From the NCBI GenBank assembly GCA_000004985.1, contig GG738901.1: 64,000 nt of DNA. One strand, given 5' to 3'. The notes beneath the pieces are model-generated. The model was not told where the DNA came from and searched no databases. It worked only from the letters and a program-made list of their open reading frames with translations. The translations under genes were made by a program, and so were the position numbers. Source of the DNA: Naegleria gruberi (lineage: Eukaryota). This document shows positions 22,881-64,000 of the stretch, piece after piece. Within the stretch, counting starts at the first letter, position 1. Every line of letters starts with the position of its first letter.

Positions 22881-22953
22881 CGCCCCACGTGGGGCTCGAA
22901 CCCACGACCGTTGGATTAAAAGTCCAACGCTCTACCGACTGAGCTAGCGGGGC
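22881..22953 (-). tRNA. tRNA-Lys (anticodon UUU)
   Basis: Reverse complement GCCCCGCTAGCTCAGTCGGTAGAGCGTTGGACTTTTAATCCAACGGTCGTGGGTTCGAGCCCCACGTGGGGCG. D arm GCTC/GAGC. Anticodon loop CTTTTAA. T loop TTCGAGC. Acceptor with one G-U pair. TTTTT downstream on the minus strand. Confidence 0.9.
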
Positions 22954-44047: not shown

Positions 44048-44180
44048 TTTCCAAGATATTAAGGCTTTCGTCACGCTTATTGTGCGCCTTCCTAGCTCAG
44101 TTGGCAGTAGCGCTGTCCTAGTAAGACAGAGGTCTTGGGTTCGATTCCCAAGGGAGGCATTTTGCCTTAATTCTAACACA
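44048..44180 (+). repeat. About 130-bp duplicated segment (copy 1) comprising tRNA-Thr plus about 38 bp 5' flank and about 20 bp 3' flank
   Basis: tttccaagatattaaggctttcGTCACgcttattgtgcgcc[tRNA]ttttgccttaatt recurs at 49775..49905 with only 3 substitutions in the 5' flank. Confidence 0.85.
44086..44159 (+). tRNA. tRNA-Thr (anticodon AGU), copy 1
   Basis: GCCTTCC acceptor pairing with GGGAGGC (one G-U). Anticodon stem CTGTC/GACAG with loop CTAGTAA. T arm TTGGG-TTCGATT-CCCAA. Discriminator A. TTTT downstream. Confidence 0.9.
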
Positions 44181-49774: not shown

Positions 49775-49905
49775 TTCCAAGATATTAAGGCTTTCTAAAC
49801 GCTTATTGTGCGCCTTCCTAGCTCAGTTGGCAGTAGCGCTGTCCTAGTAAGACAGAGGTCTTGGGTTCGATTCCCAAGGGAGGCATTTTGCCTTAATTTC
49901 TTAAC
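49775..49905 (+). repeat. Duplicated tRNA-Thr segment, copy 2
   Basis: See copy 1. The variant pentamer is TAAAC instead of GTCAC in the 5' flank. Confidence 0.85.
49812..49885 (+). tRNA. tRNA-Thr (anticodon AGU), copy 2 (identical to copy 1)
   Basis: Sequence identical to 44086..44159. Same TTTT terminator. Confidence 0.9.
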
Positions 49906-50051: not shown

Positions 50052-51716
50052 ATGTCTAAAAAAATGAAATTATTCAACATCTTTCTAATTATCTGTATCG
50101 CCTGCTATCTGTTCTTACCAGTATTCTGTCTATCCACACAAGTTACTTCCAATGGCGTTACATATTTAGGATTTCAAAATGGAAACGTTTCTTCCTTTAT
50201 TGGAATTCGTTATGGACAAGAAACCTCTGGCAATAATAGATTCAAGATTACTGTACCCTTCCTCTATGATCAATCCTCTGTGGTCAATGCAACTTCATTT
50301 GGCCACGTTTGTCCACAACCAACCACTGCCACAACTTTACTTTCGGCCATGAGTGAAGATTGTCTTAATCTGAATATTTGGACACCAATGTTGAATGAAA
50401 GTGTGCAAGTTATGGTTTGGATTCATGGTGGTTCATTCACAAGTGGTTCAGGTTCTATCTATGATGGTTCGTATTGGTGTTCGAAAGCAGCCGAAATGGG
50501 AATTCCAGTAGTTCTTGTAACTATTAATTATAGATTGGGATCTTTGGGTTTCTTATCTGATAAGACAAGTGGTGTGAATGGAAACTTTGGTTTATACGAT
50601 CAATTAGAAGCTATCAGATGGGTCAAAGTAAATATTCGAAACTTTGGTGGAAACCCTGACAAGATTACCGTAGCAGGAGAATCAGCAGGTGGCATGTCCA
50701 TAGCATGTCTACTCTCCACCTCCATTTTCTCTTCAGAAAACCTCTTCCAACAATCAATCATTCAAAGTGGAATTCTTCCAAGCTCAGTTTTACAAAATAC
50801 TTTGGACGGAGCTCAAGCATTTACAAATATTTTGAAATCAAGAGTTTCCTGTTTCACACTAGCTTGTTTGAGACAATTACCATTTGCAGATTTCATTACA
50901 GCTCAGAGAAATATGACCTTTGTTCCAGTAGTTGATGGTCAACTTTTATCCGAAACTATTTATCAAAATTTAGACAAGGTCAATAATCCAATCTCCAATA
51001 TTTCCATGATGGTTGGAACGACCAGGAATGAAACCACTGCATTCACCTGTGATAGAGGATCTAATCTCAATATCTATCAATTATATGTCCTCTTCAGAAC
51101 TCTCTTCAATATGGAACCTCTCTCATCAATTTTCGAGTTGTTGGCACAAGTGTCCATTCTCTATGGTGGACAGGGGACTTATTCGAGTATTTTGCAATTC
51201 TTTAATGTGTTTATGACGGATGCATTGTTTTATTGTCCAGCTCGATATTATTCATCGGTGGTTTCAGAGATGCAGAAGAATGTTTCGTCTAAAAGTAGAG
51301 TGGAAAGGAATGTTTATCAGTATGTATTTTCGTATGTCCAACCGAAATTGGGTCCTTGTTATGGAGCTCCACATGCTTCTGAATTGCCTTATTTGTTTCC
51401 ATCAATTTTGGACGAAATTAAGAATAATCCAGATTTGAGTGGAATGTTTTCTGATTCTCAAAATTTAGAATTTTCAGATAAGGATCGAAAAATATCTGAT
51501 TCAATGATTTATTATTGGACTAATTTTATCAAATATGGAAAACCAGATGGAGAAAATCCAAAAGAAGAATTCCCAAATTGGATTTCGTTTAATAGATGTG
51601 AAGAGAAGTTATTGTATATTGACATCCCTCTCAAGATGGAACAAGCAATGAAAGAAACAATTTGTAACTTTTGGGACGATCAATTTGGAAGAAAGAAAAT
51701 TGAGAAACATTGTTGA
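50052..51716 (+). CDS. Carboxylesterase type B (cholinesterase-like alpha/beta hydrolase), secreted
   Basis: ORF 49956.. begins at TTG; in-frame ATGs are at 50052 and 50064 before the signal peptide MKLFNIFLIICIACYLFLPVFC. COesterase motifs EDCLNLNIWTP, VWIHGGSF, nucleophile elbow GESAGG, FGGNPDKITVAGESAGGMS. Intron-free. Confidence 0.85.
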   Translation: MSKKMKLFNIFLIICIACYLFLPVFCLSTQVTSNGVTYLGFQNGNVSSFIGIRYGQETSGNNRFKITVPFLYDQSSVVNATSFGHVCPQPTTATTLLSAMSEDCLNLNIWTPMLNESVQVMVWIHGGSFTSGSGSIYDGSYWCSKAAEMGIPVVLVTINYRLGSLGFLSDKTSGVNGNFGLYDQLEAIRWVKVNIRNFGGNPDKITVAGESAGGMSIACLLSTSIFSSENLFQQSIIQSGILPSSVLQNTLDGAQAFTNILKSRVSCFTLACLRQLPFADFITAQRNMTFVPVVDGQLLSETIYQNLDKVNNPISNISMMVGTTRNETTAFTCDRGSNLNIYQLYVLFRTLFNMEPLSSIFELLAQVSILYGGQGTYSSILQFFNVFMTDALFYCPARYYSSVVSEMQKNVSSKSRVERNVYQYVFSYVQPKLGPCYGAPHASELPYLFPSILDEIKNNPDLSGMFSDSQNLEFSDKDRKISDSMIYYWTNFIKYGKPDGENPKEEFPNWISFNRCEEKLLYIDIPLKMEQAMKETICNFWDDQFGRKKIEKHC

Positions 51717-51825
51717 GAATAAATATTCGAAATCATTCGAATCTTGTATTAAATCCCAACAATTCATTTTTTTAAATTATTAGAAACTAAAAGAATCTCA
51801 CAAACAATTTATTATCATTTCCTAA

Positions 51826-54800
51826 TTAAGCATCCACAACGGTTGAAACTTGGTTACAAGATTGATCGACAATTTCATTCATGGTTGATGATAAATCAGT
51901 CCAGGAAACTGTCATGGCTCTCGCTGGATCATAATTCATTCCTCTAATTTGTCTAGCACCCCAAGTGTTGGACATGGCAGAACCAACGGCCATAGCCACA
52001 ATTTTCTATAAAAGGAAAATTAAAAATTTATCAAAATAGGAAATATTCAAAAATTAATGAAAATAAAAAATAAAAACATACCCATTGGACCTTATTATTT
52101 CCATTGTAAGGATTATCCAAATCATATGGAACAACTCCACTAGCATTACGTTTCCAACTATTAATCTTTTGAGCTGCAGGAAGAGCATCAGCACATGGCA
52201 AACAATAAGCAGATTTGGAAGTACTACAATAATCACATTGAGTTCCATTGAGAACTGATGTATCATTATACTTGTAGGCACAAATATCATTCAATTGAGT
52301 GTTCAAAGCAGAACCAGTGTACTTGTTCAAGATATTGGTTTGGATAGAGTTGGAGAAGAGACTTGGTCTTGCTTGGTATTCATTTCTACAATCACCACAT
52401 GAACATGGAACGTTGGCAACACCATCAGTCAAAACTATTGTAAAATAAATTGAAAAATTATTTGTAAGAAATTGTAAGGGTGAAAAAAAACTTACTGAAA
52501 ATAACCTTATCAGCATCATCTCTACCTCCATTGGCAGGTCTCAAAGCATCTACAGCAACTCTCAATCCAGGAATAGTTCCAGTTGAAGAGGCTTCATAAG
52601 CCATATTAGTTAAGGTATTATTAATTGTTGTTCCGTCATTCGAAAGTTTCAAAGCAAGTGTTGCATTCGAGTGGAATCTTACAATGGAAACCAATATGGA
52701 ATCTGATGAGATGGACATTCTTCCTGTAATTTGTTTACACAAAGTTCTCATTGAATTATAATTGGTTGTACCAATTGACCCAGAAGCATCAAGTAAAAAG
52801 ACAAAGTCAATCTTGGCAGTGCAGTAACAATTCTTGAATTCAATGTAGACAGTTGCGTTTCTAGAGACGTTGAATGAAGTGATCATTGTGTATTGGAATT
52901 TATCTGCTTGACAGGTTGTGGTGTCAGAATCAACTTCGATAGCAGCAACTCCATTAACTGTCACTAATCTTGGAGTCTTGTGACAGTAATTGGAATTTGG
53001 ACAAGAAATTGAGGTTAATTTCAAGGTAGTATTTGAACCAAATTCATCAATATCATTTTGGAGAATTTGCCAGACGTAGATTCTAATAGTTTGTCCTTGA
53101 TTAATTTCAAATCTGTCATCATTGGCAGTTGGTGTTGATGGTGACAAGACAAATGTAATGACAGCAGTATCAACTCCATTAGTTGGTAAATTGTTATCCG
53201 AAACCTTAACATTCATTGTACAAGTTCCAGTAATGACAGTTGGCAATCTTGTAAAAGTGACAACTCCAGAAGTAGAAATAGTCAAACTTGACACAATTGA
53301 GCCACAACTATGACCAGTTTGACTGAAAGTCAACACATCAGAACCATCAGCATCTGTGGCCGTATAACCAAAAGTATGGACATTGCTCGTAGCAAGTGGA
53401 ACCACCGTAAAAGTCACATCATTTGCAACCGGAATTTGATTATAAATATTAACAGTCACTGAACAGGCACTGCTACTCGTAGCTTGAGAATCGGTGCTAG
53501 TGTAAGTGACTTGGAAAGTTCCACTGTTAGTGGATGAAGCTTTGAAAACAGTTCCTGTCAAGGTGCCAAATGTTGAAGAGATGGAATTGGTAATGGTGTT
53601 GGTGATTGGATCATTGTTGGAATCGGTGGCGCTGAATAAGGTGGCCAAGTCAATTGAACCTTTCTTTAACAAGTCAATTGAGCTTGAAGAACAGATTGGA
53701 GCAGAATTGAGGAAAGTGACACTGAATGTGAGATTTGATGTACTGTAATGAAGACCATCGAATAATCTGAATTGAATTGTCTTGAGACCAAGGATGAGTT
53801 TGTTACTGGTGGTCAATCTGATACCAGTTCCAATATTAGAAACTGTAATACTTGAATCAGAAGAAACGAAATTGGTATAAGAAATGGAATCTCCATCAGC
53901 ATCTGAAACTGTGGCAATTTGAGCCCAAGTGAAATCATAAGTAGAGGTTGTGTAATCTCTGTCAATTGATGTGGATTTTCCAGTACCTGTTGGAGCATTG
54001 TTAGTGACAGTTACAGTGACAGTTCCTGGATTATTGGCAGTTAACATACCATCAGTACATTGGAATTTGAAAGAACCTGTAGCAGAGTAAGCACCATTAG
54101 AACCAGTAAAGGTTAAAGAAGTTGCAGAAGGAGTATAACTAACAATCTTATTCGAAACTGAAACACTTCCACCAACAACACTTGAAGTAGCTCCATTGAA
54201 GTAGGCAGTATCCAATGAATCAGAATCAGTACAAGCACCTGATGATAAATCCACAGAAACAGATGATTTCCATTTGGTAGTTGCTGTCTTGTCAACACAT
54301 TGTGGAGCATTGTCATAAACATTGACATTTACAACAGTGTTGCTATTTTCAAGGGATTGAGCACCATCTGTGAATTTATAGGTGACAACATCAGTTCCAA
54401 TGTAGGTTCCCGGAGCATTGTAAGTAATGGTTGAAGTTCCAACTGAAACTGAACCCTTTTGAGCTGATGCACTAACAAGTGACAAGTTGTCATTATCTGG
54501 ATCTTTCAAAGAAGGTGCAAATGTTGCGAATGGACTCAAGGTAACACCAGTTTCCTTCCAGTGAACATTCTTTGAGCTTGCAACTGGAACTGACATGTTA
54601 TTATAAACAGTGACATAAACTGTACCTGGAGTTGACACAATTGAATCACTAGCTCCATAAGTGAATGAGAAAGTTCCCAAATAAACAGATGAACCAGCAG
54701 TAGCAACAGCATTTGGTGAAGTTGGCATAGCAATAGATCCAGCCCCGGATGGAGAAACACTAGATACTTGAACTGAATAAGTTAATGCATTTCCTTCAAC

Positions 54801-57800
54801 ATCTGTTACTCCAGTACTCATGTCCATTTGATAACCCGTCTTGTGAGTAGCCCAGTGGACATTGAAATATTTGGTGTTGGTTACTGGAGCAGTATTAGTC
54901 ATGGTGAATGTGACTGAGAAAGTAACTGTGGCCAAACCATCAGTTGCAGTTACCTTAAAAGAGTCTGGACCGACATATTTGGTAGGAGCAGTGTAAGTGA
55001 TTGAACTGCCAGTTACTGCAGAGACAGACCCCAAAGTTGATGAGCTATCAACGCTCTTGACTGTTCCCTTTGTTTCTCTACCAGCAGAATAATCATCATC
55101 AACATAATTAGTTAACAAGTCAACTGTCTTTGAGCCTCCCCAATTAATAAATTGAGTAGCAAGACTGGCAGTTGGCACATTATTGTAAGTAGTAATAGTA
55201 ACAGAAACAGTACTATCAAGACCAGTATCAGTAACAGTTACAGTGAACGTATCAATGTACAATTTTCTCAAAGGAGTAAAGTAAATCTTTCCACCTGACA
55301 AGGTGACAGTTGGATTAGAAGTGGAACCAATTGCCTTAATAGTTGAAGTTGGCAAGTTAGTCAAGATTGGAACTTCATAATTGTTGGCATTCCAGTGGAC
55401 ATCATAACTTTGATCATAATTTGAAGAGCTCAATGAACTGACAACAATGTTAATGTAACAAATTGATGAAGCTGTCAAACCATCAGTGACTGTGTAAGCA
55501 TAGGTACGAGCACCAATGTTTGCGTTTGGTTTAAAGTTCAAATATGCACCAACTACAGTGAAAGAATCACCAGGATAGGAATTTCCAATAATTTGAGCAG
55601 TTCCAGGAACTAAATATGGAATATCATTGGAATCTGGATCAGTAACTGATGATGAAATTGAATAGTTTTGACCACTTGTAACATAGATTGGTTTGAATGA
55701 AACGGTCATGTTTGAACATGTTGGTGCACTGTTTGTAATGGTCAATTGAGCAGTTTTACTTCCAGATGAAGCCAAACCATCAGAAACTGAGAATGAGCAT
55801 GAGGCTGTACCAAGAGTATTAGGTGGAGCTGTAACTCTAACCTTTGGAACAGTGTCACTAGTCTTTGAACAAGAAGCTCCAGATAATCCTGAAGCAGTTG
55901 GATTGACAGTCAAAGTAAGAGAATCACCATCATTGTCAGTTGTCTTTGCCATGACAGTGAAATCTTGATTAAGAGATTGAGACAACAAAGTTCTCCAATG
56001 AACAGAAGTAGCAACATTTGAAGCACTTGGTACATCATTATTAGTAAAACCAACGTTAACAGTAATTGTATCAGATTGTGAAACAGTGTCAGTAATAACA
56101 TATTGGAAAGTATCAGCCAATCCATTCTTCTTGGCAGTATATTTAACAGAAGATCCACTAACAGAAGCAGCAGTACTTCCACTAACAGAGTAGAGTGAGA
56201 TTGGATCTCCATTTGGATCCATGTCATTGTCCAAAACTGAGAACAAGGTTGCAGGAGCAGCCCAATGGAGAGTGTATGATTCACCTGTACCAACTGGTTT
56301 AGTATTGGTCACTTGAACGTTGACAGTTCCTTGAGTTTTCTTATTGTAATCATAAGCATAGTAAGTGAATGACTTTGAACCAACAGTGGCAGAGACAGTG
56401 TTTGGAATAAATTTGATAGTCTTGGAATCTGACAAGGTGACAGTTCCAACAGAGGAGTCAGCTGTAGTAGATTCTAAGACAAGAGCATCACCATCTGGAT
56501 CACTATCATTGGACAATGGATTAACCAAGACACCACTAGGATTTCTCCAGTGAGTTGTGATGGAATCATCAACAGTGACAGGAGCGTTATTGTTGACAGT
56601 AATAGTGACAGTAGCAGAGTTGGAATCAGCATTAGCAGAACTTCCATCATTTAACTTGTAAGTGAAAGAATCAGTTCCAACAAAACCATCAGTTGGTGTG
56701 TATCTGACAACACTTCCCAATACAACAACAGAACCATGAGTTGGATTTGTGGTAATGTGAACAGTGGATGTGGTCAAATCACCATTCTTATCAGAATCGT
56801 TATCCTTTACAGAGCAATCAACTGATCTATTCCACAATGTGGAGTAGGAATCATCAACAGCAACAGGAGCATCGTTAACAACTTGTAAAGTAACTGTAGC
56901 TCTATAAGTTGAAGTCAAACCATCTTGATGGGTGACATCATAGGTCAAATAATCAGTATATTCAGCATTAGAAGCAGCATATGACAAAGTATTCTTAGTG
57001 CCAGGTACAATAGTAGCTTGAATATTCTTAATTGTAGAAGCAGAAACAAAGTTTACAATAAATACTGAACCAAGACCATCGTTTGGATCAGAATCATTAT
57101 CCAAAACATTCAAAATGGAAGTAACACCCTTTGAAATCTCGAATGTATCATCGGCAGGAGTTGGTGGATTATTGATAACAGTAACAGTGAGCTTTCCCTT
57201 TGAGAAACTTGTTGGATCAGCATTACCATTAGCATCAAGACTTTGATCAGAAATTACATATTGAGCAACGTCAGTTCCCAAGAAACCATTTGGAGCTGAG
57301 TAGAGAGCATGTGTTTCATTGAAGAGGGTCAAACTTCCTCCATTCAATGTTGTGGAATTCCAACCAACACTTGACAAGACGATCTTTGCAGTGTCACCAC
57401 TGTTGATATCATAATCATTGGCAACGAGATTGACATAAACTTGAAGATTCTTATTACATTCGGCAAGGTCATCAACTGCAACAGGTGGAGTATTGACAAC
57501 GTTGATGGTGATTATACCACTTCCTGTACCTTCACCATCTGACATGACAACAGTGAAAGTTTGAGTGTAAACTTGATTGGAAACTGGTGTGAAAAGGATA
57601 GTGTAATTGTTTGTTTCAACACTAAGCCAATCACAACAATCAAAGAAAATATTGACATAATTAGTAGTCTTTTGTAAAGAAGAAGAAACAGATGCAAGAG
57701 AAGGAGTGATTGTACTTGGAACGATCAAATCCTTTCCATCTGCATCATAATAATCAATAGTAATTGAATTATTAGTGGATGACTTGGCAACAGTGACAGT

Positions 57801-58881
57801 TTTAGAATAGACAACTGGATTTTGATTGTAAACTGAGATTACAACAATACCAGATGAAGTAGCAACACCATCTGAAATGGTATATTCAAACGAATCAGAA
57901 TATTTGGTATTGACACTACCACTTGTAATGTAAGTAATCTTCTTTTCACCAACATTGATAGCACCATAACCAGTACCCAAAGCACTTGTAATATTGAAAT
58001 CATCACCATTGATATCATAGTCATTAGCCAAAACATCCAAAACCAATGAACGGAATTTAGGAATTCTGTAAGTATCATCAACAGCAATTGGAGGATCGTT
58101 GGAGACAGTGACAGTAATTATAGAGCTCGAAGTGTCATAGCCATCAGAAATGGAATAGGCAAATTGTTCAACACCATTGAAACCATATGCAGGAGTATAA
58201 TAGAAACCATTAGCTGGATCAACAGAAATTGAACCAGTTTCAGCACTATTTCCACTAACAATAGTTTGATTAGTGAAAGAAACTGCTTGAATTAAATCAC
58301 CATTATCTGGATCATTAATCTTCTCATCATTATCACCAACATAATCAAAAATGTTGATTACTGAATTCTTGGCATTCTTACTGACAGTTACACGAATAGG
58401 AACGGCTTCTGGTGGACGATTCAAAACTTGAATAGTAACAGATGCATTTGCTGTCTTGTAACCATTAGTAATTTGATAACTGAAAGTGTCATTTCCAGCA
58501 AAAGTACCATTTGACTTGTAGAGAACTTGACTATTGGACTGAATTGAGGCTGAACCATGATTTGGATAGACAACAAATTGAACCAATGAAATGTTTGCTC
58601 CTTTAGGATCATAATCATTGGAAAGAACATTGATGGTCAATGGAATATTCTTGTAGGTGGAAGCTAAATCATTGACAGCAACTGGTCTTTGATAGGAAAT
58701 CAAGGACACCATCAAGATGGTGGCTACTGTGGAAGCAATAACCAAACCAGAGATGATAGCACCAATCTATTTGGTTTTTTAGAATATGCGAAAGATTATT
58801 CGAAACTTACGATTGTTTGACTAATAGTACCTCCTTTCTATTAAATAGGTTAGAGCGCAAGTGGAGTTTGAAATATTTCAT
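51826..58881 (-). CDS. Giant secreted adhesin-like protein (about 2,284 aa): signal peptide, about 20 tandem cadherin-like/VCBS-type repeats, C-terminal VWA domain with Cys-rich insert; 4 exons join(58881..58831,58766..52496,52434..52082,52005..51826)
   Basis: Exon 1 MKYFKLHLRSNLFNRKE. GTACTA..AATAG intron (64 nt). Exon 2 opens with the hydrophobic IGAIISGLVIASTVATILMVSLISYQ, then about 95-100-aa repeats with recurring P[PV]xAVDD ... (V/L)xxNDxDx[ND]GD motifs, then VWA start DFVFLLDASGSIG ... RDDADKVIF. GTAAGT..AATAG intron (61 nt, phase 1, codon A|TT giving ..VIFILTDG). Exon 3 is the Cys-rich insert (CSCGDCRNEY..CDYCSTSKSAYCLPCADA..). GTATGT..TATAG intron (76 nt). Exon 4 is KIVAMAVGSAMSNTWGARQIRGMNYDPARA..stop. 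All phases are consistent with ORFs 52458..58745 and 52031..52531. Confidence 0.75.
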
Positions 58882-60084
58882 TGTTATTTTTCGACATTAT
58901 TCACATATTATCCACATGGATTGTCAACTGACACTTACTAATAACGAAACGTTGAAACCAAGAGATTGCTTGGACGCAGTTGAAGATCCAATAATTTCTG
59001 GCATGGCTAATTTTTTTAAAGATGTGTAACAAAGCTGTCAATGGTTTGTTGGTTTTTATAACTAACTCATTCCAAATAATTAATGATTTCTGACATACCC
59101 TTAGAAGTGACATGACATTTTGACCCTTAAACTGGAATTTTAGAACTGAAAAATTGAACTGAAAATAAGAAATTGAATTTTCATTTTCAGACAATTACTT
59201 GCCTTGGAATTTTTCTAGTTTAAATAGAGTGCAAACAGTTAATATTAGATGTTCATTTCCCAAAGTATCAACATTAAAAGTAACTTGTAAAGCACTCACT
59301 GTATCGATGTGTATACAATGAAAGTACGAAACAACAACAATTAAGAACAATTTCTTGCAAACTATTCTACATAGCAAATGGTGTTAACAAACCGCCAAAA
59401 ACCGTTTTGCTGTAAATTTCAAAAGAAAAAATGGCTTAAAAGCTTGTGCTGGAAAAATATTGTTTGCTTTGGAAAGAACCTTAGTAAATATTGCTTTGGC
59501 AGTAGTGCTCACCATTTGGAGAAAGAACCTTAGAAAAAATTGTTTAAAGGGTTGCGAGGATGGCTGCTTTTTGATTGAACCAACAATAAGGATGAACAGA
59601 AGAGAGTATCCGAGTAATTTCGTCATACAAGTTTTTCATCATCCAATCAACCTTTTATAACAAACGGATAACTTCAACATCTTCATCACTGAATTATCCA
59701 AATTATCTTACTTCTTCTTTTCTTCACAAGAAGGCAATCATCACGATATTTACACTTCACCAACAACAATAATATTTTAGAAATTTTGTTTACATGTTTC
59801 CTTTATTATGATGATAGCAATCAACATCTTATGAAGATTAAATTTGAGTATTGGAGAACTTTTTGATACAAAACTCGTCAAAGTGACATCAACTATCCAC
59901 TTTCCTGATGAACGTGCTTGTGTGATCTTTCCTTGTTGCGAGCATGATGATAGACGACTCTTCAGCATCTACACTTCACTGCTGTCATCAATATGATTGA
60001 CAGGCGATGTAAAATCATTTGAAGGATGATGGGTTAGATTGATAAATTTTCACACATTAAAAAAACAAATCAACAAAACCACTA

Positions 60085-63000
60085 ATGTCTCAAGAAAACG
60101 ATAATATCGAAGTTGGTGACGAAAGCCAACGTCGTCGTAGAACAGCTCGTGGTGGCGCTGGTGCTGGAACCAAATCAGCAGCTTCAGCAACTCTCTTTAC
60201 AAAACTTGTTGATGCTCAATCAGATGAAAGTAACTGGAAAGTTTCAGGTGCCAACTTTATGTGGGTACCATGTAATGGTGAAGCACTTAATGCTTTCGAA
60301 GTTGGTGAAATTAAAGAACGTAAAGGAAAGGAAGTTGTTGTTGAAACAGAATCAGGTGATAAGAAGACACTCCCAATTGAAGAAGTTTTCCCAATGAATC
60401 CTCCAAAATTGACAGGTATTGAAGATATGGCTAGATTATCCCATCTGAATGAACCTTCTGTGCTTTTCAACTTGAAGAAGCGTTATGAAAGTGATAAAAT
60501 CTACACATACTCTGGTCTCTTTTTAGTTGCCGTCAATCCATACAAGAATTTACCAATCTATACTGATGAAATCATCAAGAAGCATAATGGTAAGAGACGT
60601 GAAGATGCTGAACCACACGTTTTCACAGTTGCAGATGTTGCTTATAGACAAATGTTACAAAATCAATTGAATCAATCCATGTTGGTTACAGGTGAATCAG
60701 GTGCTGGTAAAACTGAAAATACCAAGAAGATTATCCAATATTTGACTGCTACAGCTGGTGCTTCACATGGTGCTGGTAAATTAGAAAACCAATTGTTGCA
60801 AACCAATCCATTGTTGGAAGCTTTTGGTAACGCAAAGACACTTCGTAATAATAACTCATCTCGTTTTGGTAAATTCATTGAAGTTGACTTCAATGTAAGT
60901 GGTTATATTGCTGGTTGTAAGATTCAACACTACTTATTAGAAACAACAAGAGTTACTGCTCAAGCTGGTGATGAAAGAAATTTCCACTTCTTCTATCAAA
61001 TCCTTTCTGATGCTCAAGCTAGAAACAAGTATCACTTGACTAATGTTAACAGTTATGCCTATGTCTCTCAATCTGGTTGTACTTCTGTTCCAGGTATTAA
61101 TGATGCTATGGAATTCCAAGAAACATTGAAGGCCATGCGTATTATTGGTATCAGTGAAGATGAAATTGATGCTACTTGTAGAATTGTTGCTTCAATTCTC
61201 CATTTGGGTAATTGTAAATTTGTAAAGGATGATGAAGATTTATCCATGTTACCAGAACGTTCACCACTCAATACTGCTTCTGAATTATTGTGTGTTGATC
61301 CAGAAGGTTTGGCAAAGGGTTTCATGAAGCCAAACATTATTACTCCAACTGATATCATTGAAACTCACGTCAATGTTGCTCAAGCTGGTTTCAATAGATC
61401 TGCTTTAGTCAAGTCAATGTATAATCGTTTGTTCGACTGGTTAGTTCGTTCCATTAATCAATCTTTGACATCAAAGGAAAAGATTAAGAACTTTATTGGT
61501 GTCTTGGATATTGCTGGTTTCGAAATCTTTGAATTGAACAGTTTTGAACAATTGTGTATCAATTATACTAACGAAAAGTTGCAACAATTCTTCAATCACC
61601 ATATGTTCAAGAAGGAACAAGAAGAATACTTGAAGGAAAAGATTGAATGGAAGTTCATTGATTTTGGTTTGGACTTGCAACCAACTATTGACTTGATTGA
61701 AAAGCCATTGGGTATCTTGGCTATTTTGGACCAACAAACTTTCATGGCTCAACAATCTGAAGAAGGTTTGGTTCGTGAAATTAACAAGAATCATGGTACT
61801 AAGAAACAATTCAAGACTTCTCGTTTCAATGAAAAGGAATTCATCCTTTCTCACTATGCTGGTGATGTTCCATACAATGTTGTTCAATGGTTCACTAAGA
61901 ACGTTGATCCACTCAATGAAGATTGTAAATCAACTATGATTGCTTCTGGTAATACTTTGATTAAATCACTCTTTGATGTTCCAGGAGAAAGAACCAAGGC
62001 TAATGAAAAGAGATCTGTTGGTAGTGCTCGTTTCAAGACTGTTGCTACAAACTATAAGAATCAATTGAAGGATCTTATGGGATTGTTAGAATCAACTGAA
62101 CCTCACTTTATCCGTTGTATCAAACCAAACAATTTGCAAAAGCCAGCTATCATTGATGATCGTCTTGTTTTGCATCAATTGAAATGTAACGGTGTCTTGG
62201 AAGGTATTCGTATTGCTCGTAAGGGTTATCCAGGTCGTATTCCATATGCTGAATTCGTCAAACGTTATGATTTGTTGGTTGAAGATAAACGTTCTTTGGA
62301 ACAACAACCAAATCTCCGTGGTAAGGCTCAAGTCATTCTTGATTCTATCAAGTTTGAAGAAACCACTCAATATAAATTGGGTGCCACAAAGGTCTTCTTG
62401 AAGGCCTCACAAGAAGCTCTCATTGAAGAATATCGTGAAGCTCAAATTTCAAAGATTATTGGTGTTGCTCAAGCTGCTGCTTTAGCCGCTTATGAAAGAG
62501 TTGCTTATAAGAAGTTGCAAGGACGTTTGGTTTCTATCAAGTTGATCCAAAGAAACTTCCGTGCCTACTTGAAGCTCAAGAATTGGGGTTGGTGGCAATT
62601 AATTAACTTGACTCGTCCATATCTTAAGGAATTCTCAAGTGAACAAGTCACTAAGAAGTTGAAGGAAGATTTCGAACAACTCAAGAAGGATCTCGAAGGT
62701 GAAAAGGATTCTAAGAAGAAGCTTGAAACTGAAAAGAATGCTCTCGAACAATCTCGTAAGAAGCTCATTGATGACTTGGAAGAACAACGTAATCGTTTGG
62801 ATACCATGAATAATCACATGAACCAACTCGAAAAGGAGTTGAATGATAGAAAGAGAGAATTGGAACGTTCTCAAAAGGATAACGATGACAAGGACTCTGA
62901 AATCACTCGTAACACTCAAGCTATTGCTGCTCTTAACCAAGCTCAAAAGAAGCTCGAAGAAGCCATTCGTGATATGAAGAATGAAATTGAACAACGTGAA

Positions 63001-64000
63001 AAGATTATCAAATCTAAGGGTGGTGACTTGCAAAACAAGGATTTAGAAATTGAAACCTTGAACAAGAAGGCCAAGGATTTGGATAAGAGAATTGCTGATT
63101 TGGAAAATAATCTTGCTGATTCTCGTAATGAAATCAATAACAAGTCCAATGAAATTTCTAGACTCCAAATGGAGCTTTCTGACCAAGGTATTCAATTGGA
63201 AAATGAATCCAATAACCGTAAGGCTCGTGAAGAAGATTTGAAGAAGCGTGATAAGGACATCAAGGACTTGAAGAAGGAATTGACCGACTCTCAATTGGCT
63301 GGTGATCAATTGGATTCTGAATTGAAGAAGACCAAGAAGGAAAAGCAAGGTTTGGAAGAAGATTTGGACAAGCAAAAGAAGTCTGCTGATAACTTGCAAA
63401 GAAAGTTAACTGCTACTGAACAAAGTGCTCAAAACTTGTCCAACCAATTGGATGAAGAAACTCGTAAGAGACAAGGTGCTGAAAATAAGAATCGTTCACT
63501 CCAATCTGACTTGGATAATGCCAACTCCAAGGTTAATGATTTGGAAAACGCTGTTCATGACAGAGATGATTTGATTGCTCAACTTCAAGCTGAAATCAAC
63601 AAGCTCAAGCAAAGAATTGCTGATCTTGAATCTGAAAACCAAAAGCTTTTGGAACGTAACAAGGATCTCGAAAGAGAACTCTCTGATACCAAGTTCAGAA
63701 TGGATGAAGAGTTGAAGAACAAGAATAACGAAATTGATCGTTTGAAGAAGCTCTCTGAATCATCAAAGGATGAATTAACTCTCCAATTGAACAGAACCAA
63801 TGATGAAAAGAATGATCTCCTCAACAAGTTGAAGAAGGCTGATAAGGACTTGAAGAACTTGAAGAAGAACAAGGATGATCTTCAACAAGAAAAGGATGAT
63901 GCTGATAACCGTATCAGAAAGCTTGAATCTGACCTCAAGGAAAAGGAACAACAAGCTGATGCTCTTCAAAAGAAGATTGCTGACTTGGAAAATGAAGGTC
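60085..64000 (+). CDS. Myosin II heavy chain (conventional non-muscle myosin), 5' complete, truncated by the window end after about 1,305 codons; intron-free
   Basis: ATG at 60085 (MSQENDNIEVGD..). Motor motifs GESGAGKTENTKK (P-loop), NSSRFGKF (switch I), LDIAGFE (switch II). IQ region LIQRNFRAYLKLKNWGWWQL. Then a heptad coiled-coil tail to the window end. High similarity to Dictyostelium MhcA but not identical. Strong T/C-ending and GGT/GCT/CGT/AAG codon bias. Confidence 0.9.
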   Translation, partial: MSQENDNIEVGDESQRRRRTARGGAGAGTKSAASATLFTKLVDAQSDESNWKVSGANFMWVPCNGEALNAFEVGEIKERKGKEVVVETESGDKKTLPIEEVFPMNPPKLTGIEDMARLSHLNEPSVLFNLKKRYESDKIYTYSGLFLVAVNPYKNLPIYTDEIIKKHNGKRREDAEPHVFTVADVAYRQMLQNQLNQSMLVTGESGAGKTENTKKIIQYLTATAGASHGAGKLENQLLQTNPLLEAFGNAKTLRNNNSSRFGKFIEVDFNVSGYIAGCKIQHYLLETTRVTAQAGDERNFHFFYQILSDAQARNKYHLTNVNSYAYVSQSGCTSVPGINDAMEFQETLKAMRIIGISEDEIDATCRIVASILHLGNCKFVKDDEDLSMLPERSPLNTASELLCVDPEGLAKGFMKPNIITPTDIIETHVNVAQAGFNRSALVKSMYNRLFDWLVRSINQSLTSKEKIKNFIGVLDIAGFEIFELNSFEQLCINYTNEKLQQFFNHHMFKKEQEEYLKEKIEWKFIDFGLDLQPTIDLIEKPLGILAILDQQTFMAQQSEEGLVREINKNHGTKKQFKTSRFNEKEFILSHYAGDVPYNVVQWFTKNVDPLNEDCKSTMIASGNTLIKSLFDVPGERTKANEKRSVGSARFKTVATNYKNQLKDLMGLLESTEPHFIRCIKPNNLQKPAIIDDRLVLHQLKCNGVLEGIRIARKGYPGRIPYAEFVKRYDLLVEDKRSLEQQPNLRGKAQVILDSIKFEETTQYKLGATKVFLKASQEALIEEYREAQISKIIGVAQAAALAAYERVAYKKLQGRLVSIKLIQRNFRAYLKLKNWGWWQLINLTRPYLKEFSSEQVTKKLKEDFEQLKKDLEGEKDSKKKLETEKNALEQSRKKLIDDLEEQRNRLDTMNNHMNQLEKELNDRKRELERSQKDNDDKDSEITRNTQAIAALNQAQKKLEEAIRDMKNEIEQREKIIKSKGGDLQNKDLEIETLNKKAKDLDKRIADLENNLADSRNEINNKSNEISRLQMELSDQGIQLENESNNRKAREEDLKKRDKDIKDLKKELTDSQLAGDQLDSELKKTKKEKQGLEEDLDKQKKSADNLQRKLTATEQSAQNLSNQLDEETRKRQGAENKNRSLQSDLDNANSKVNDLENAVHDRDDLIAQLQAEINKLKQRIADLESENQKLLERNKDLERELSDTKFRMDEELKNKNNEIDRLKKLSESSKDELTLQLNRTNDEKNDLLNKLKKADKDLKNLKKNKDDLQQEKDDADNRIRKLESDLKEKEQQADALQKKIADLENEG

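What the first reader, a model, noticed from the sequence alone, without database searches (positions are those of the whole stretch)
51826..52760. VWA domain interrupted by an about 110-aa cysteine-rich insert and split over three exons
The VWA fold begins normally (DFVFLLDASGSIG .. ILVSIVRFHSN .. RDDADKVIF|ILTDG). Immediately after the ILTDG strand a module with 12 Cys is inserted: PCSCGDCRNEYQ...CAYKYNDTSVLNGTQCDYCSTSKSAYCLPCADALPAAQ. The canonical final strands (KIVAMAVGSAMSNTWGARQI..) are encoded by a separate 180-bp terminal exon. The two small introns precisely bracket the insert. This suggests the Cys-rich module was acquired by exon insertion into the VWA loop. That loop is spatially near the MIDAS face in integrin I-like domains, so the insert could modulate ligand binding.
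Basis: partly seen in the sequence, partly recalled or inferred. Interest (0 to 1): 0.6.

Follow-up and report, generated by a model that had tools for sequence, protein, structure and literature searches.

The report
Cysteine-rich cap on amoeba adhesin head
The last three exons of a giant Naegleria gruberi surface-protein gene encode a metal-binding VWA "head" domain. One loop at its metal-binding site has grown into a small eight-cysteine helical module that is shared by a whole family of amoeba proteins, resembles no known fold, and was not acquired by exon insertion.

Summary
On the minus strand, canonical GT-AG introns of 61 and 76 nt split the C-terminal VWA domain of a 2,298-aa, five-exon gene, and a Cys-rich stretch follows ILTDG.

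Corrections:
- The insert has 8 Cys, not 12.
- The true insertion is about 72-78 aa.
- The stated end, 52760, cuts off beta1 and the DxSxS motif (52776-52814).

The window is Naegleria gruberi. The protein has an N-terminal membrane anchor, about 17 bacterial-type Ig/cadherin-like repeats and a C-terminal VWA head with an intact MIDAS motif.

Exon insertion is not supported:
- The exon is 353 nt with phases 1/0.
- Intron 2 is absent from every divergent homologue locus I could read.
- Intron positions vary between homologues.
- The module was not found outside VWA domains.

Most likely it is a disulfide-stapled cap on the MIDAS face that shapes ligand specificity. I file it as a new variant of a known kind, of moderate interest.

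The parts
58939..59004 (-). Exon 1 (66 nt). Start codon and the first part of the short N-terminal tail, MPEIIGSSTASKQSLGFNVSLL.
   Evidence: Sequence read and splice model. The N-terminus matches N. fowleri XP_044559448.1 (P0046) and the Willaertia and N. gruberi paralogues.
58811..58837 (-). Exon 2, a 27-nt micro-exon encoding KGGTISQTI. It is flanked by GT-AG introns of 101 and 44 nt.
   Evidence: The motif is conserved in paralogues.
52496..58766 (-). Exon 3 (6,271 nt). It encodes the membrane anchor (residues 31-54), about 17 Big_9 / Cadherin_4 / Cadherin_5 repeats, and the N-terminal half of the VWA domain up to beta4 (…DKVIF).
   Evidence: ORF. Pfam: Big_9 E=2.9e-122 in 17 stretches, Cadherin_4 E=1.8e-87, VWA E=3.8e-12. 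Coordinates.
52776..52790 (-). MIDAS motif DxSxS (D2024-A-S-G-S2028).
   Evidence: The column is conserved across the family alignment A3.
52581..52583 (-). MIDAS threonine candidate (T2093 in SSTGTIPGL).
   Evidence: The T column is conserved in A3. Equivalence to integrin alphaM T209 is inferred from the spacing to the following Gly, not tested.
52435..52495 (-). Intron 3 (61 nt, GTAAGT…AATAG, phase 1). It lies inside beta4 at VIF|ILTDG.
   Evidence: The same position is used in L001 and L003 but not in L004-L008.
52082..52434 (-). Exon 4 (353 nt, phases 1/0). It encodes the end of beta4, the MIDAS Asp (TDG), the Cys-rich module, the alpha4 helix and the pre-beta5 loop.
   Evidence: AF2 model of this exon product: pLDDT 77, helices at residues 12-19, 30-37, 40-50 and 83-91.
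52424..52426 (-). MIDAS aspartate (D2125 of ILTDG).
   Evidence: TDG is nearly invariant in alignments A3 and A4.
52193..52408 (-). The true insertion: an eight-Cys module (residues 2131-2202, PCSCGDC…C…C..C…CLPC). It is predicted to be helical and carries two N-glycosylation sequons (NDT, NGT).
52148..52192 (-). Canonical alpha4 helix of the VWA domain (ADALPAAQKINSWKR). It is not part of the insertion.
   Evidence: It is present in the insert-less members (…PVPIAQKINSW). It is a helix in both models.
52006..52081 (-). Intron 4 (76 nt, GTATGT…TATAG, phase 0), at VQW|KIVAMAVG.
   Evidence: It is present in the near-identical contig L010. It is absent from L001, L003, L004/5 and L006/7.
51826..52005 (-). 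Exon 5 (180 nt including the stop codon). It encodes beta5 (KIVAMAVG) through to the C-terminus of the VWA domain (…IVDQSCNQVSTVVDA*).
   Evidence: The homologue model has beta5 at 221-227 and helices at 235-244 and 259-271.

Best explanation
The region is the 3' end of a five-exon Naegleria gruberi gene for a 2,298-aa cell-surface protein. The protein has a short N-terminal tail, one membrane-anchor helix, a stalk of about 17 bacterial-type Ig/cadherin-like repeats, and a membrane-distal C-terminal VWA (integrin-A-like) head with a complete MIDAS motif.

In this protein, and in a wide heterolobosean family, the beta4-alpha4 MIDAS loop directly after the metal-binding Asp carries a roughly 72-aa module with eight conserved cysteines. 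The module is predicted to fold as a small helical subdomain.

Shown:
- the gene model;
- the VWA fold;
- the position and boundaries of the insert;
- conservation of the insert;
- a confident helical prediction;
- no match to any Pfam family or solved fold.

Inferred:
- The protein sits N-in, C-out, so the Cys form four disulfides.
- The module sits on the MIDAS face and acts as a rigid cap that extends and diversifies the ligand-binding surface. Its Cys frame is invariant while its middle is hypervariable.
- It would thus work like the specificity loop of integrin beta I-domains or the 'arms' of bacterial pilus-tip VWA adhesins.

The module is an old in-place elaboration of a loop, not a shuffled exon.
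For: Gene model and organism:
- Splice model.
- The neighbouring carboxylesterase is identical to N. gruberi XP_002671979.1.
- The protein is 50.5% identical over its full length to N. fowleri XP_044559448.1, which has the same architecture.

Transcript support:
- The poly-A cDNA contig L002 reads through both junctions.

VWA fold:
- Pfam VWA plus Big_9/Cadherin repeats.
- AF2 model of the 46%-identical cDNA homologue: pLDDT 92.6, pTM 0.90.

Insert:
- Eight Cys in the window protein and in most homologues with a complete insert, and 0-1 in three insert-less members.
- C77, P79 and C80 are invariant, and C51 and C69 are at least 90% conserved.
- N. gruberi P0059 has lost Cys2 and Cys5 together, which hints at a disulfide pair.
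- Length between TDG and CxPC varies from roughly 35 to 90 aa between subfamilies.
- PDB sequence matches and Pfam matches all stop at TDG.

Distribution:
- Naegleria fowleri, N. lovaniensis and N. gruberi, Willaertia magna and Acrasis kona.

Origin:
- The insert-less VWAs form one clade (98% bootstrap) nested among insert-bearing clades.
Against: - I could not read model coordinates. Disulfide geometry and the distance from the module to the MIDAS rest on fold topology, not on measurement.
- The full-domain model is of a 46%-identical homologue. The window's exon-4 product modelled alone reaches only pLDDT 77.
- There is no N. gruberi transcript evidence for this exact locus.
- Membrane topology is inferred.
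- Nothing here tests ligand binding, metal binding or function.
- Deep nodes of the NJ tree are weak (39%), so 'lost once' versus 'gained early' is a parsimony argument.
Confidence: 0.6

Rival explanations
1. First reader's model. The Cys-rich module is a mobile domain that entered the VWA loop by exon insertion (exon shuffling), and the two small introns are the scars of that event.
For: In the window the Cys-rich stretch lies on its own small exon between two short introns. In L006/L007/L008 an intron lies right at the N-terminal edge of the module, at TDGLAN|(V/I)xCxC.
Against: - The exon is 353 nt with phases 1 and 0. It is not a symmetric cassette, and skipping it frameshifts.
- It carries core VWA elements: the MIDAS Asp and the alpha4 helix.
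- Intron 2 is missing in L001 (76-78% identical), L003, L004/5 and L006/7.
- L004/5 have an intron inside the module instead.
- A profile search of 1.84 billion representatives found the module only inside VWA domains. The two non-VWA hits, P0053 and P0066, are Cys-free repeat proteins.
- No Pfam family or fold match.
- The insert predates the Naegleria-Acrasis split.
Confidence: 0.04
2. The module is mainly a regulatory lid or redox/force-sensitive switch. It covers or feeds a side chain (for example the conserved acidic residue in CxPC-A-D/E) to the MIDAS, and opens on disulfide reduction or tension, gating adhesion rather than defining specificity.
For: The module is attached directly to the MIDAS Asp loop. 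A near-invariant acidic residue follows CxPC. Cys-rich VWA adhesins whose disulfides staple loops are known in bacteria, for example CglB (PMC9946355). The protein is a long tether and so could plausibly be under load.
Against: No data here place any insert residue at the metal. In insert-less members the equivalent position is N or D just before the alpha4 helix, which is consistent with a simple helix cap. The hypervariable middle of the module fits diversification better than a conserved gate.
Confidence: 0.15
3. The eight Cys bind metal (Zn or Fe clusters) rather than forming disulfides, for instance if the VWA end is cytosolic, so the module would be a zinc-ribbon-like element.
For: CxC-x2-C and CxxC spacings resemble zinc knuckles. 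Single members give weak Pfam hits to zinc-finger families, at E values between 0.058 and 0.82.
Against: Those hits are single sequences and non-significant, with no family shared by more than 2 of 38 members. The model is helical and has no zinc-ribbon fold match. N-glycosylation sequons inside the module, Ig-like repeats, and an N-terminal anchor with no other membrane segment all fit an extracellular location.
Confidence: 0.06
4. The module is a structurally tolerated, functionally neutral loop expansion, or serves only folding and stability, with no role in ligand recognition.
For: One clade has apparently dispensed with it, and its length varies widely.
Against: The Cys frame and flanks (N.PC.C, C.PC[AS][DE]) are held nearly invariant across genera and dozens of paralogues. 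That argues for selection.
Confidence: 0.12

Closest known systems
Integrin alpha I-domains and CMG2/TEM8 (ANTXR) VWA domains, the MIDAS-type ligand-binding VWA domains
   Different: In those proteins the beta4-alpha loop after the MIDAS Asp is short; in integrin alphaM I-domain, about 26 aa separate TDG from beta5 (from memory). Here 113 aa separate them, including a 72-aa eight-Cys helical module. Sequence profiles break at TDG.
Integrin beta-subunit I-like domain with its specificity-determining loop (SDL)
   Same: A disulfide-bonded insertion on the MIDAS face of a VWA fold that tunes ligand specificity (established knowledge). This is the functional analogy I favour.
Bacterial pilus-tip VWA adhesins (RrgA 2WW8, GBS104 3TXA/3TW0, SpaC 6M48, PitA 7W6B) and Porphyromonas Mfa5 (6TO1/6TNJ)
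   Different: Those arms are, from memory, mostly beta-hairpin or loop extensions without a Cys framework. They are prokaryotic and sortase- or type-V-pilus-linked. I could not test whether the insertion points coincide.
Dictyostelium Sib proteins (SibA-E), 'similar to integrin beta'
   Same: An amoeba surface protein that combines a VWA head with bacterial-type repeats and one membrane span (from memory; cited in PMC9928731 and PMC8296547).
   Different: Sib proteins are type I, with an N-terminal VWA domain and a C-terminal cytosolic tail carrying NPxY talin-binding motifs. Here the anchor is N-terminal, the VWA domain is C-terminal, and no NPxY is present in the tail. Herman et al. found no Sib orthologues in Naegleria (PMC8296547).
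Myxococcus CglB, a Cys-rich VWA gliding adhesin
   Same: A VWA adhesin with many Cys predicted to staple loops by disulfides, with the MIDAS needed for function (PMC9946355).
   Different: CglB is a bacterial lipoprotein whose Cys are scattered at loop necks rather than forming one compact module after TDG. There is no sequence relationship.

Membership tests
VWA / integrin-A domain (Pfam PF00092) | Sequence match above the curated threshold | tested here: met
   PF00092 E=1.5e-17, 64.8 bits against a cut-off of 23.8. The match covers only profile positions 1-117 of 174 because of the insert.
VWA / integrin-A domain (Pfam PF00092) | Rossmann-like alpha/beta fold, including the strands after the insert | tested here: met
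MIDAS-bearing (metal-dependent adhesion) VWA subclass | DxSxS, plus Thr, plus the Asp of the beta4 loop | tested here: met
   D2024-A-S-G-S2028, T2093 and D2125 in ILTDG. These columns are conserved in the family alignment. Assignment of the Thr rests on spacing only.
MIDAS-bearing (metal-dependent adhesion) VWA subclass | Actual Mg2+/Mn2+ binding and cation-dependent ligand binding | not testable with these tools
   Needs biochemistry or a metal-aware structure prediction.
Integrin beta I-like domain | Insertion in a hybrid domain, ADMIDAS/SyMBS sites and pairing with an alpha-subunit propeller | tested here: not met
Exon-shuffled mobile module | Symmetric intron phases, with exon length a multiple of 3 | tested here: not met
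   The exon is 353 nt with phases 1 and 0, and skipping it frameshifts.
Exon-shuffled mobile module | Flanking introns conserved in homologues | tested here: not met
   Intron 2 is absent from L001, L003, L004/5 and L006/7. Other intron positions vary.
Exon-shuffled mobile module | The module occurs in other protein contexts | tested here: not met
   A profile search of 1.84 billion representatives gave 44 hits. The Cys-bearing ones sit inside a VWA domain or are short fragments of this same region. P0053 and P0066 are Cys-free and spurious.
Dictyostelium Sib-type adhesion receptors | Type I topology with an N-terminal VWA domain and a C-terminal cytosolic NPxY tail | tested here: not met
   The anchor is at residues 31-54, the VWA domain is at the C-terminus, and there is no NPxY in the first 60 residues.
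Heterolobosean 'Tandem-95 repeat / VWFA' giant surface proteins (unnamed family; N. fowleri XP_044559448.1, N. gruberi XP_002679343.1 and others) | The MPE…FNxSLLKGGTIxQTI N-terminus plus membrane span, Big_9 repeats, and a C-terminal VWA domain with N.PC.C…C.PC[AS][DE]…INSW | tested here: met
   Full-length alignment to P0046 is 50.5% identical over residues 1-2290. The Pfam architecture is shared. The signature is shared in alignments A3 and A4.

The most novel reading that the evidence does not exclude
These giant VWA-tipped proteins, including the N. fowleri orthologue XP_044559448.1, are the so far unidentified cation-dependent ('integrin-like') substrate or prey adhesion receptors of Naegleria. 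The eight-Cys cap would then be an orphan fold that sets ligand specificity, which would make it a lineage-specific handle on adhesion in the brain-eating amoeba.
Probability: 0.15. Interest if true: 0.65.

Novelty: new variant of a known kind. Interest (0 to 1): 0.4.

Why it matters
VWA/integrin-A domains are the classic metal-dependent adhesion modules. Their ligand specificity is usually set by decorations around the MIDAS.

This is an undescribed decoration. It is a conserved eight-Cys helical subdomain that grows out of the loop carrying the MIDAS Asp. It has no Pfam family and no structural neighbour in the PDB. It is present throughout a large family of heterolobosean surface proteins that databases label only 'hypothetical', 'VWFA domain-containing' or 'Tandem-95 repeat'.

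The N. fowleri genomics literature states that adhesion factors beyond Nfa1 'remain mysterious' and that no integrin-like or Sib-like gene could be found (PMC8296547). This family is a concrete candidate set.

The finding also shows that a small exon coinciding with a module is not evidence of exon shuffling when phases and homologue introns disagree.

Tried and rejected
I used the cDNA homologue P0003 for the whole domain and the window's exon 4 alone instead.
- The third word-indexed protein search, with a 500-aa piece of the repeat stalk and meant to find the N. gruberi annotation of this gene, returned nothing. This index never returned the long family members either, so its silence is uninformative.
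- Exact look-ups of my 2,298-aa model and of the unspliced read-through product found nothing. The carboxylesterase gave no genomic locus either. I therefore could not see how the public N. gruberi annotation treats exons 4 and 5.
- The afdb50 fold library was not available, so the structural search for the module outside the PDB was not done.
- P0053 and P0066, with 15 and 8 'stretches' matching the module profile, looked at first like tandem free-standing copies. They are Cys-free bacterial Ig-repeat proteins matched through composition, so I rejected them.
- By eye, the C-terminal extension of some paralogues (P0086 and others) looked like a C-type lectin. Pfam gave no such hit at E<=1e-3, so I dropped the idea.
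- Literature searches for the accessions, the metagenome project and 'Tandem-95' plus Naegleria found no description of the family or the insert.
- L001 and L003 cannot be called orthologues. The same metagenome holds a contig ~99% identical to the window (L010), so they may be paralogues of an N. gruberi-like strain.
Full report
**1. What is in the sequence**

The finding lies on the minus strand. A 2,095-codon open frame (52458-58745) ends in …GRDDADKVIF and then runs into GTAAGT. Two canonical introns follow.

| Intron | Coordinates | Length | Splice sites | Phase | Junction |
|---|---|---|---|---|---|
| 3 | 52435-52495 | 61 nt | GTAAGT…AATAG | 1 | VIF\|ILTDG |
| 4 | 52006-52081 | 76 nt | GTATGT…TATAG | 0 | VQW\|KIVAMAVG |

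Both introns contain in-frame stops if read through. Upstream there are two micro-exons (58939-59004 and 58811-58837) bounded by GT-AG introns of 101 and 44 nt. The complete five-exon CDS encodes 2,298 aa.

Pfam finds 17 Big_9 stretches, with overlapping Cadherin_4 and Cadherin_5 matches. It also finds a VWA domain whose match stops at profile position 117 of 174, exactly at ILTDG. The 113 aa between TDG and beta5 have no Pfam match even at E<=1.

**2.

- The insert contains 8 cysteines, not 12.
- The quoted DFVFLLDASGSIG lies at about 52770-52808. The VWA domain starts at about 52814, beyond the stated end of 52760.
- The 180-bp terminal exon is correct (51826-52005, including the stop).

**3. 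Organism**

The adjacent single-exon carboxylesterase (50052-51716, + strand) is identical to Naegleria gruberi XP_002671979.1 / NAEGRDRAFT_73015. The window is therefore N. gruberi, which fits its 32-38% G+C and short introns.

My spliced model is not in the protein collection as an exact sequence. I could not see how the public annotation treats this gene.

**4. Evidence that the splice model is right**

There is no N. gruberi transcript for the locus. Support comes from homologues:

- P0003 (46% identical) lies on a 1,011-bp JGI contig that ends in a poly-A tail, so it is a cDNA. It reads without interruption through …ADKVIFILTDGFANVPCGC… and …SQWRVVAQAVG….
- The annotated N. fowleri protein XP_044559448.1 (P0046, 2,312 aa) aligns with the window protein over residues 1-2290 at 50.5% identity. 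The alignment includes the N-terminal micro-exon products and the whole C-terminus.
- Several 2,100-2,440-aa family members sit on JGI or Logan contigs barely longer than their CDS, which suggests they are transcripts.

**5. What the insert is**

A profile of the insert plus the C-terminal VWA part, searched against 1.84 billion representative proteins, gave 44 hits. Named members come from N. fowleri, N. lovaniensis, N. gruberi, Willaertia magna and Acrasis kona.

All long members share one architecture:
- an N-terminus of the form MPE…FNxSLLKGGTIxQTI followed by a hydrophobic span;
- many Big_9/cadherin-like repeats;
- a VWA domain near or at the C-terminus.

After TDGxxN almost all carry the signature PCxC(xx)C … C … CxxC … CxPC[AS][DE], followed by the helix …INSW…, a loop, and beta5 W[KR]xxAxGxG.

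- Eight Cys is the most common count. A few members have 9, 10 or 14.
- The distance between TDG and CxPC varies from roughly 35 to 90 aa between subfamilies.
- C77, P79 and C80 are invariant, and C51 and C69 are at least 90% conserved.
- One N. gruberi paralogue (P0059) has lost the second and fifth Cys together. This is what one expects of a disulfide pair.

Three members lack the module altogether (P0009, P0072, P0085). P0009, for example, reads LFTDGISNCGPNPVPIAQKINSW. They keep the INSW helix and the rest of the family signature. This fixes the true insertion at about 72-78 aa (window residues 2131-2202, nucleotides 52193-52408).

**6. Structure**

I modelled the cDNA homologue P0003 with a 49-sequence family alignment. 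The result was mean pLDDT 92.6 and pTM 0.90, with the insert region at block pLDDT 84-97.

The elements of the P0003 model run as follows:

| Element | Residues | Note |
|---|---|---|
| beta4 | 96-102 | KVIFILT |
| insert helix | 112-120 | |
| insert helix | 127-135 | |
| insert helix | 142-152 | |
| insert helix | 164-167 | short |
| alpha4 | 189-196 | VPVANKVN |
| loop | 197-220 | |
| beta5 | 221-227 | |
| helix | 235-244 | |
| helix | 259-271 | |

None of the 38 insert sequences shares any Pfam family with more than one other. The suggested EGF, PSI or TNFR relationship is therefore not supported. The module is, on present evidence, an orphan helical Cys-rich subdomain.

**7. Was it acquired by exon insertion?**

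The evidence is against this.

1. Exon 4 is 353 nt with phases 1 and 0, so it is not a symmetric cassette. Joining exon 3 to exon 5 frameshifts into a stop after 17 codons.
2. The exon also encodes the end of beta4, the MIDAS Asp, the alpha4 helix and the following loop. The introns lie 9 residues before the first Cys and 37 residues after the last.
3. Intron positions are not conserved:

| Locus | Intron at VIF\|ILTDG | Window's intron 4 | Other introns |
|---|---|---|---|
| L001 (76-78% identical) | yes | no | one extra, in the N-terminal VWA half |
| L003 (62-64% identical) | yes | no | |
| L004 / L005 | no | no | one of about 213 nt inside the module, after PCTCSQCQ |
| L006 / L007 | no | no | one right after TDGLAN |
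| L008 | no | not mapped | one right after TDGLAN, plus others further downstream |
| L010 (~99% identical) | not covered by the contig | yes | |

   The only other sequence with intron 4 is L010, a near-identical N. gruberi-like contig from the same metagenome as L001 and L003.
4. The module is old. It is present in Naegleria, Willaertia and Acrasis. In an outgroup-rooted NJ tree of the VWA core, the three insert-less proteins form one clade (98% bootstrap) nested among insert-bearing clades. The deep nodes are weak (39%). Parsimony favours one early gain and one later loss.
5. No copy of the module was found outside a VWA domain. The only apparent exceptions, P0053 and P0066, are Cys-free bacterial repeat proteins matched through composition.

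**8. How it most likely works**

Shown: a MIDAS-type VWA fold with D2024-x-S-x-S2028, T2093 and D2125 present, and a conserved, confidently modelled eight-Cys module attached three residues after D2125.

Established knowledge: the MIDAS of integrin alpha-I, CMG2 and TRAP-type domains is built by the beta1-alpha1 loop (DxSxS), the alpha3-alpha4 loop (Thr) and the beta4-alpha5 loop (Asp). Ligands complete the metal coordination with an acidic side chain.

Inference:
- Because the module grows out of the third MIDAS loop, it must lie on the ligand-binding face.
- The protein has no N-terminal signal peptide. It has a single hydrophobic span at residues 31-54, followed by about 2,240 aa of Ig-like repeats and the VWA domain, with N-glycosylation sequons (28 in the whole protein; three in exon 4). 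This points to a type II surface protein with an extracellular, membrane-distal VWA head.
- In that location eight conserved Cys are expected to form four disulfides.
- An invariant Cys frame around a hypervariable middle, in a family with many paralogues per genome, is the pattern expected of a rigid scaffold that diversifies a binding surface.

I therefore favour a specificity cap beside the MIDAS. It would be functionally analogous to the specificity-determining loop of integrin beta I-domains and to the inserted arms of pilus-tip VWA adhesins.

Less likely alternatives are a regulatory lid or redox switch, a metal-binding cluster, or a neutral loop expansion. None could be excluded directly, because I could not read model coordinates and nothing here tests function.

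**9. Comparison with what is known**

The domain is a member of the VWA/integrin-A superfamily, with sequence, fold and MIDAS motif all met. It is not an integrin beta I-like domain, not a Sib-type receptor (opposite topology, no NPxY), and not an EGF/PSI/TNFR module.

It belongs to an unnamed heterolobosean family that databases label 'hypothetical protein', 'VWFA domain-containing protein' or 'Tandem-95 repeat protein'.

The literature I could search gives these proteins only bulk mention. The pangenome paper counts '15 genes coding for von Willebrand factor type A' in the Naegleria pangenome (PMC9928731). The N. fowleri genomics paper states that adhesion factors beyond Nfa1 'remain mysterious', and that no integrin-like or Sib orthologue was found (PMC8296547). 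I found no description of the Cys-rich insert.

**10. Verdict**

The feature is real and conserved. The description needs correcting: 8 Cys, an insertion of about 75 aa, shifted coordinates, and introns that do not bracket the module.

The evolutionary interpretation (exon insertion) is not supported. The functional hint (a MIDAS-proximal modulator) is reasonable but untested.

It is a new variant of a known kind: a VWA domain with an undescribed orphan-fold decoration. Interest is moderate, mainly as a candidate adhesion-receptor family in Naegleria and as a small fold with no PDB neighbour.

Noticed in passing
window 58811-59004 (minus strand): Two micro-exons (66 and 27 nt) encode a strongly conserved N-terminal tail, MPE…GFN(L/V)SLLKGGTI(S/T)QTI, just before the membrane span. 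The motif is kept in N. fowleri, N. lovaniensis, Willaertia and distant paralogues. It might be a cytosolic docking or sorting signal.
   Followed up: partly
window 50052-51716 (+): This single-exon type-B carboxylesterase is identical to N. gruberi XP_002671979.1 (NAEGRDRAFT_73015), which identifies the window as N. gruberi. My 2,298-aa model of the neighbouring VWA gene is not in the protein collection as an exact sequence, so the public gene model may differ.
   Followed up: partly
L010 1-3264; L001; L003 (ENA ERZ929261, PRJEB11402): One metagenome assembly holds a contig ~99% identical to window 51700-52400, including intron 4. It also holds two divergent homologues of the VWA end, about 76-78% and 62-64% identical. 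The sample therefore contains an N. gruberi-like amoeba, and the two homologues may be paralogues rather than orthologues.
   Followed up: partly
window 60085-64000 (+): A long intron-free ORF runs off the window end and encodes a myosin heavy chain. Pfam gives Myosin_head E=1.2e-262, followed by a weak match below threshold (ATG16, 26.5 bits vs cut-off 33.7) that may reflect coiled coil.
   Followed up: yes
window 2384-2464, 22881-22953, 44086-44159, 49812-49885: Four tRNA genes sit among the protein genes: Ser-AGA, Lys-TTT and two copies of Thr-AGT about 5.7 kb apart.
   Followed up: no
proteins P0086, P0059, P0062 (N. gruberi), P0058 (Willaertia), P0064 (N. lovaniensis): One subfamily continues for about 250-450 aa after the VWA domain. 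The extension has no Pfam match at E<=1e-3. By eye its end resembles a C-type lectin, but that was not confirmed.
   Followed up: partly
protein P0059 (N. gruberi XP_002672240.1), insert region: This paralogue has lost the second and fifth Cys of the eight-Cys frame together (PCGMGAC … DATIC). This suggests that these two form a disulfide.
   Followed up: no
proteins P0053, P0066: These Cys-free bacterial Ig-repeat proteins scored E about 1e-15 and 2e-07 against the insert profile through 15 and 8 weak repeated matches. It is a reminder that summed repeat scores can mimic homology.
   Followed up: yes
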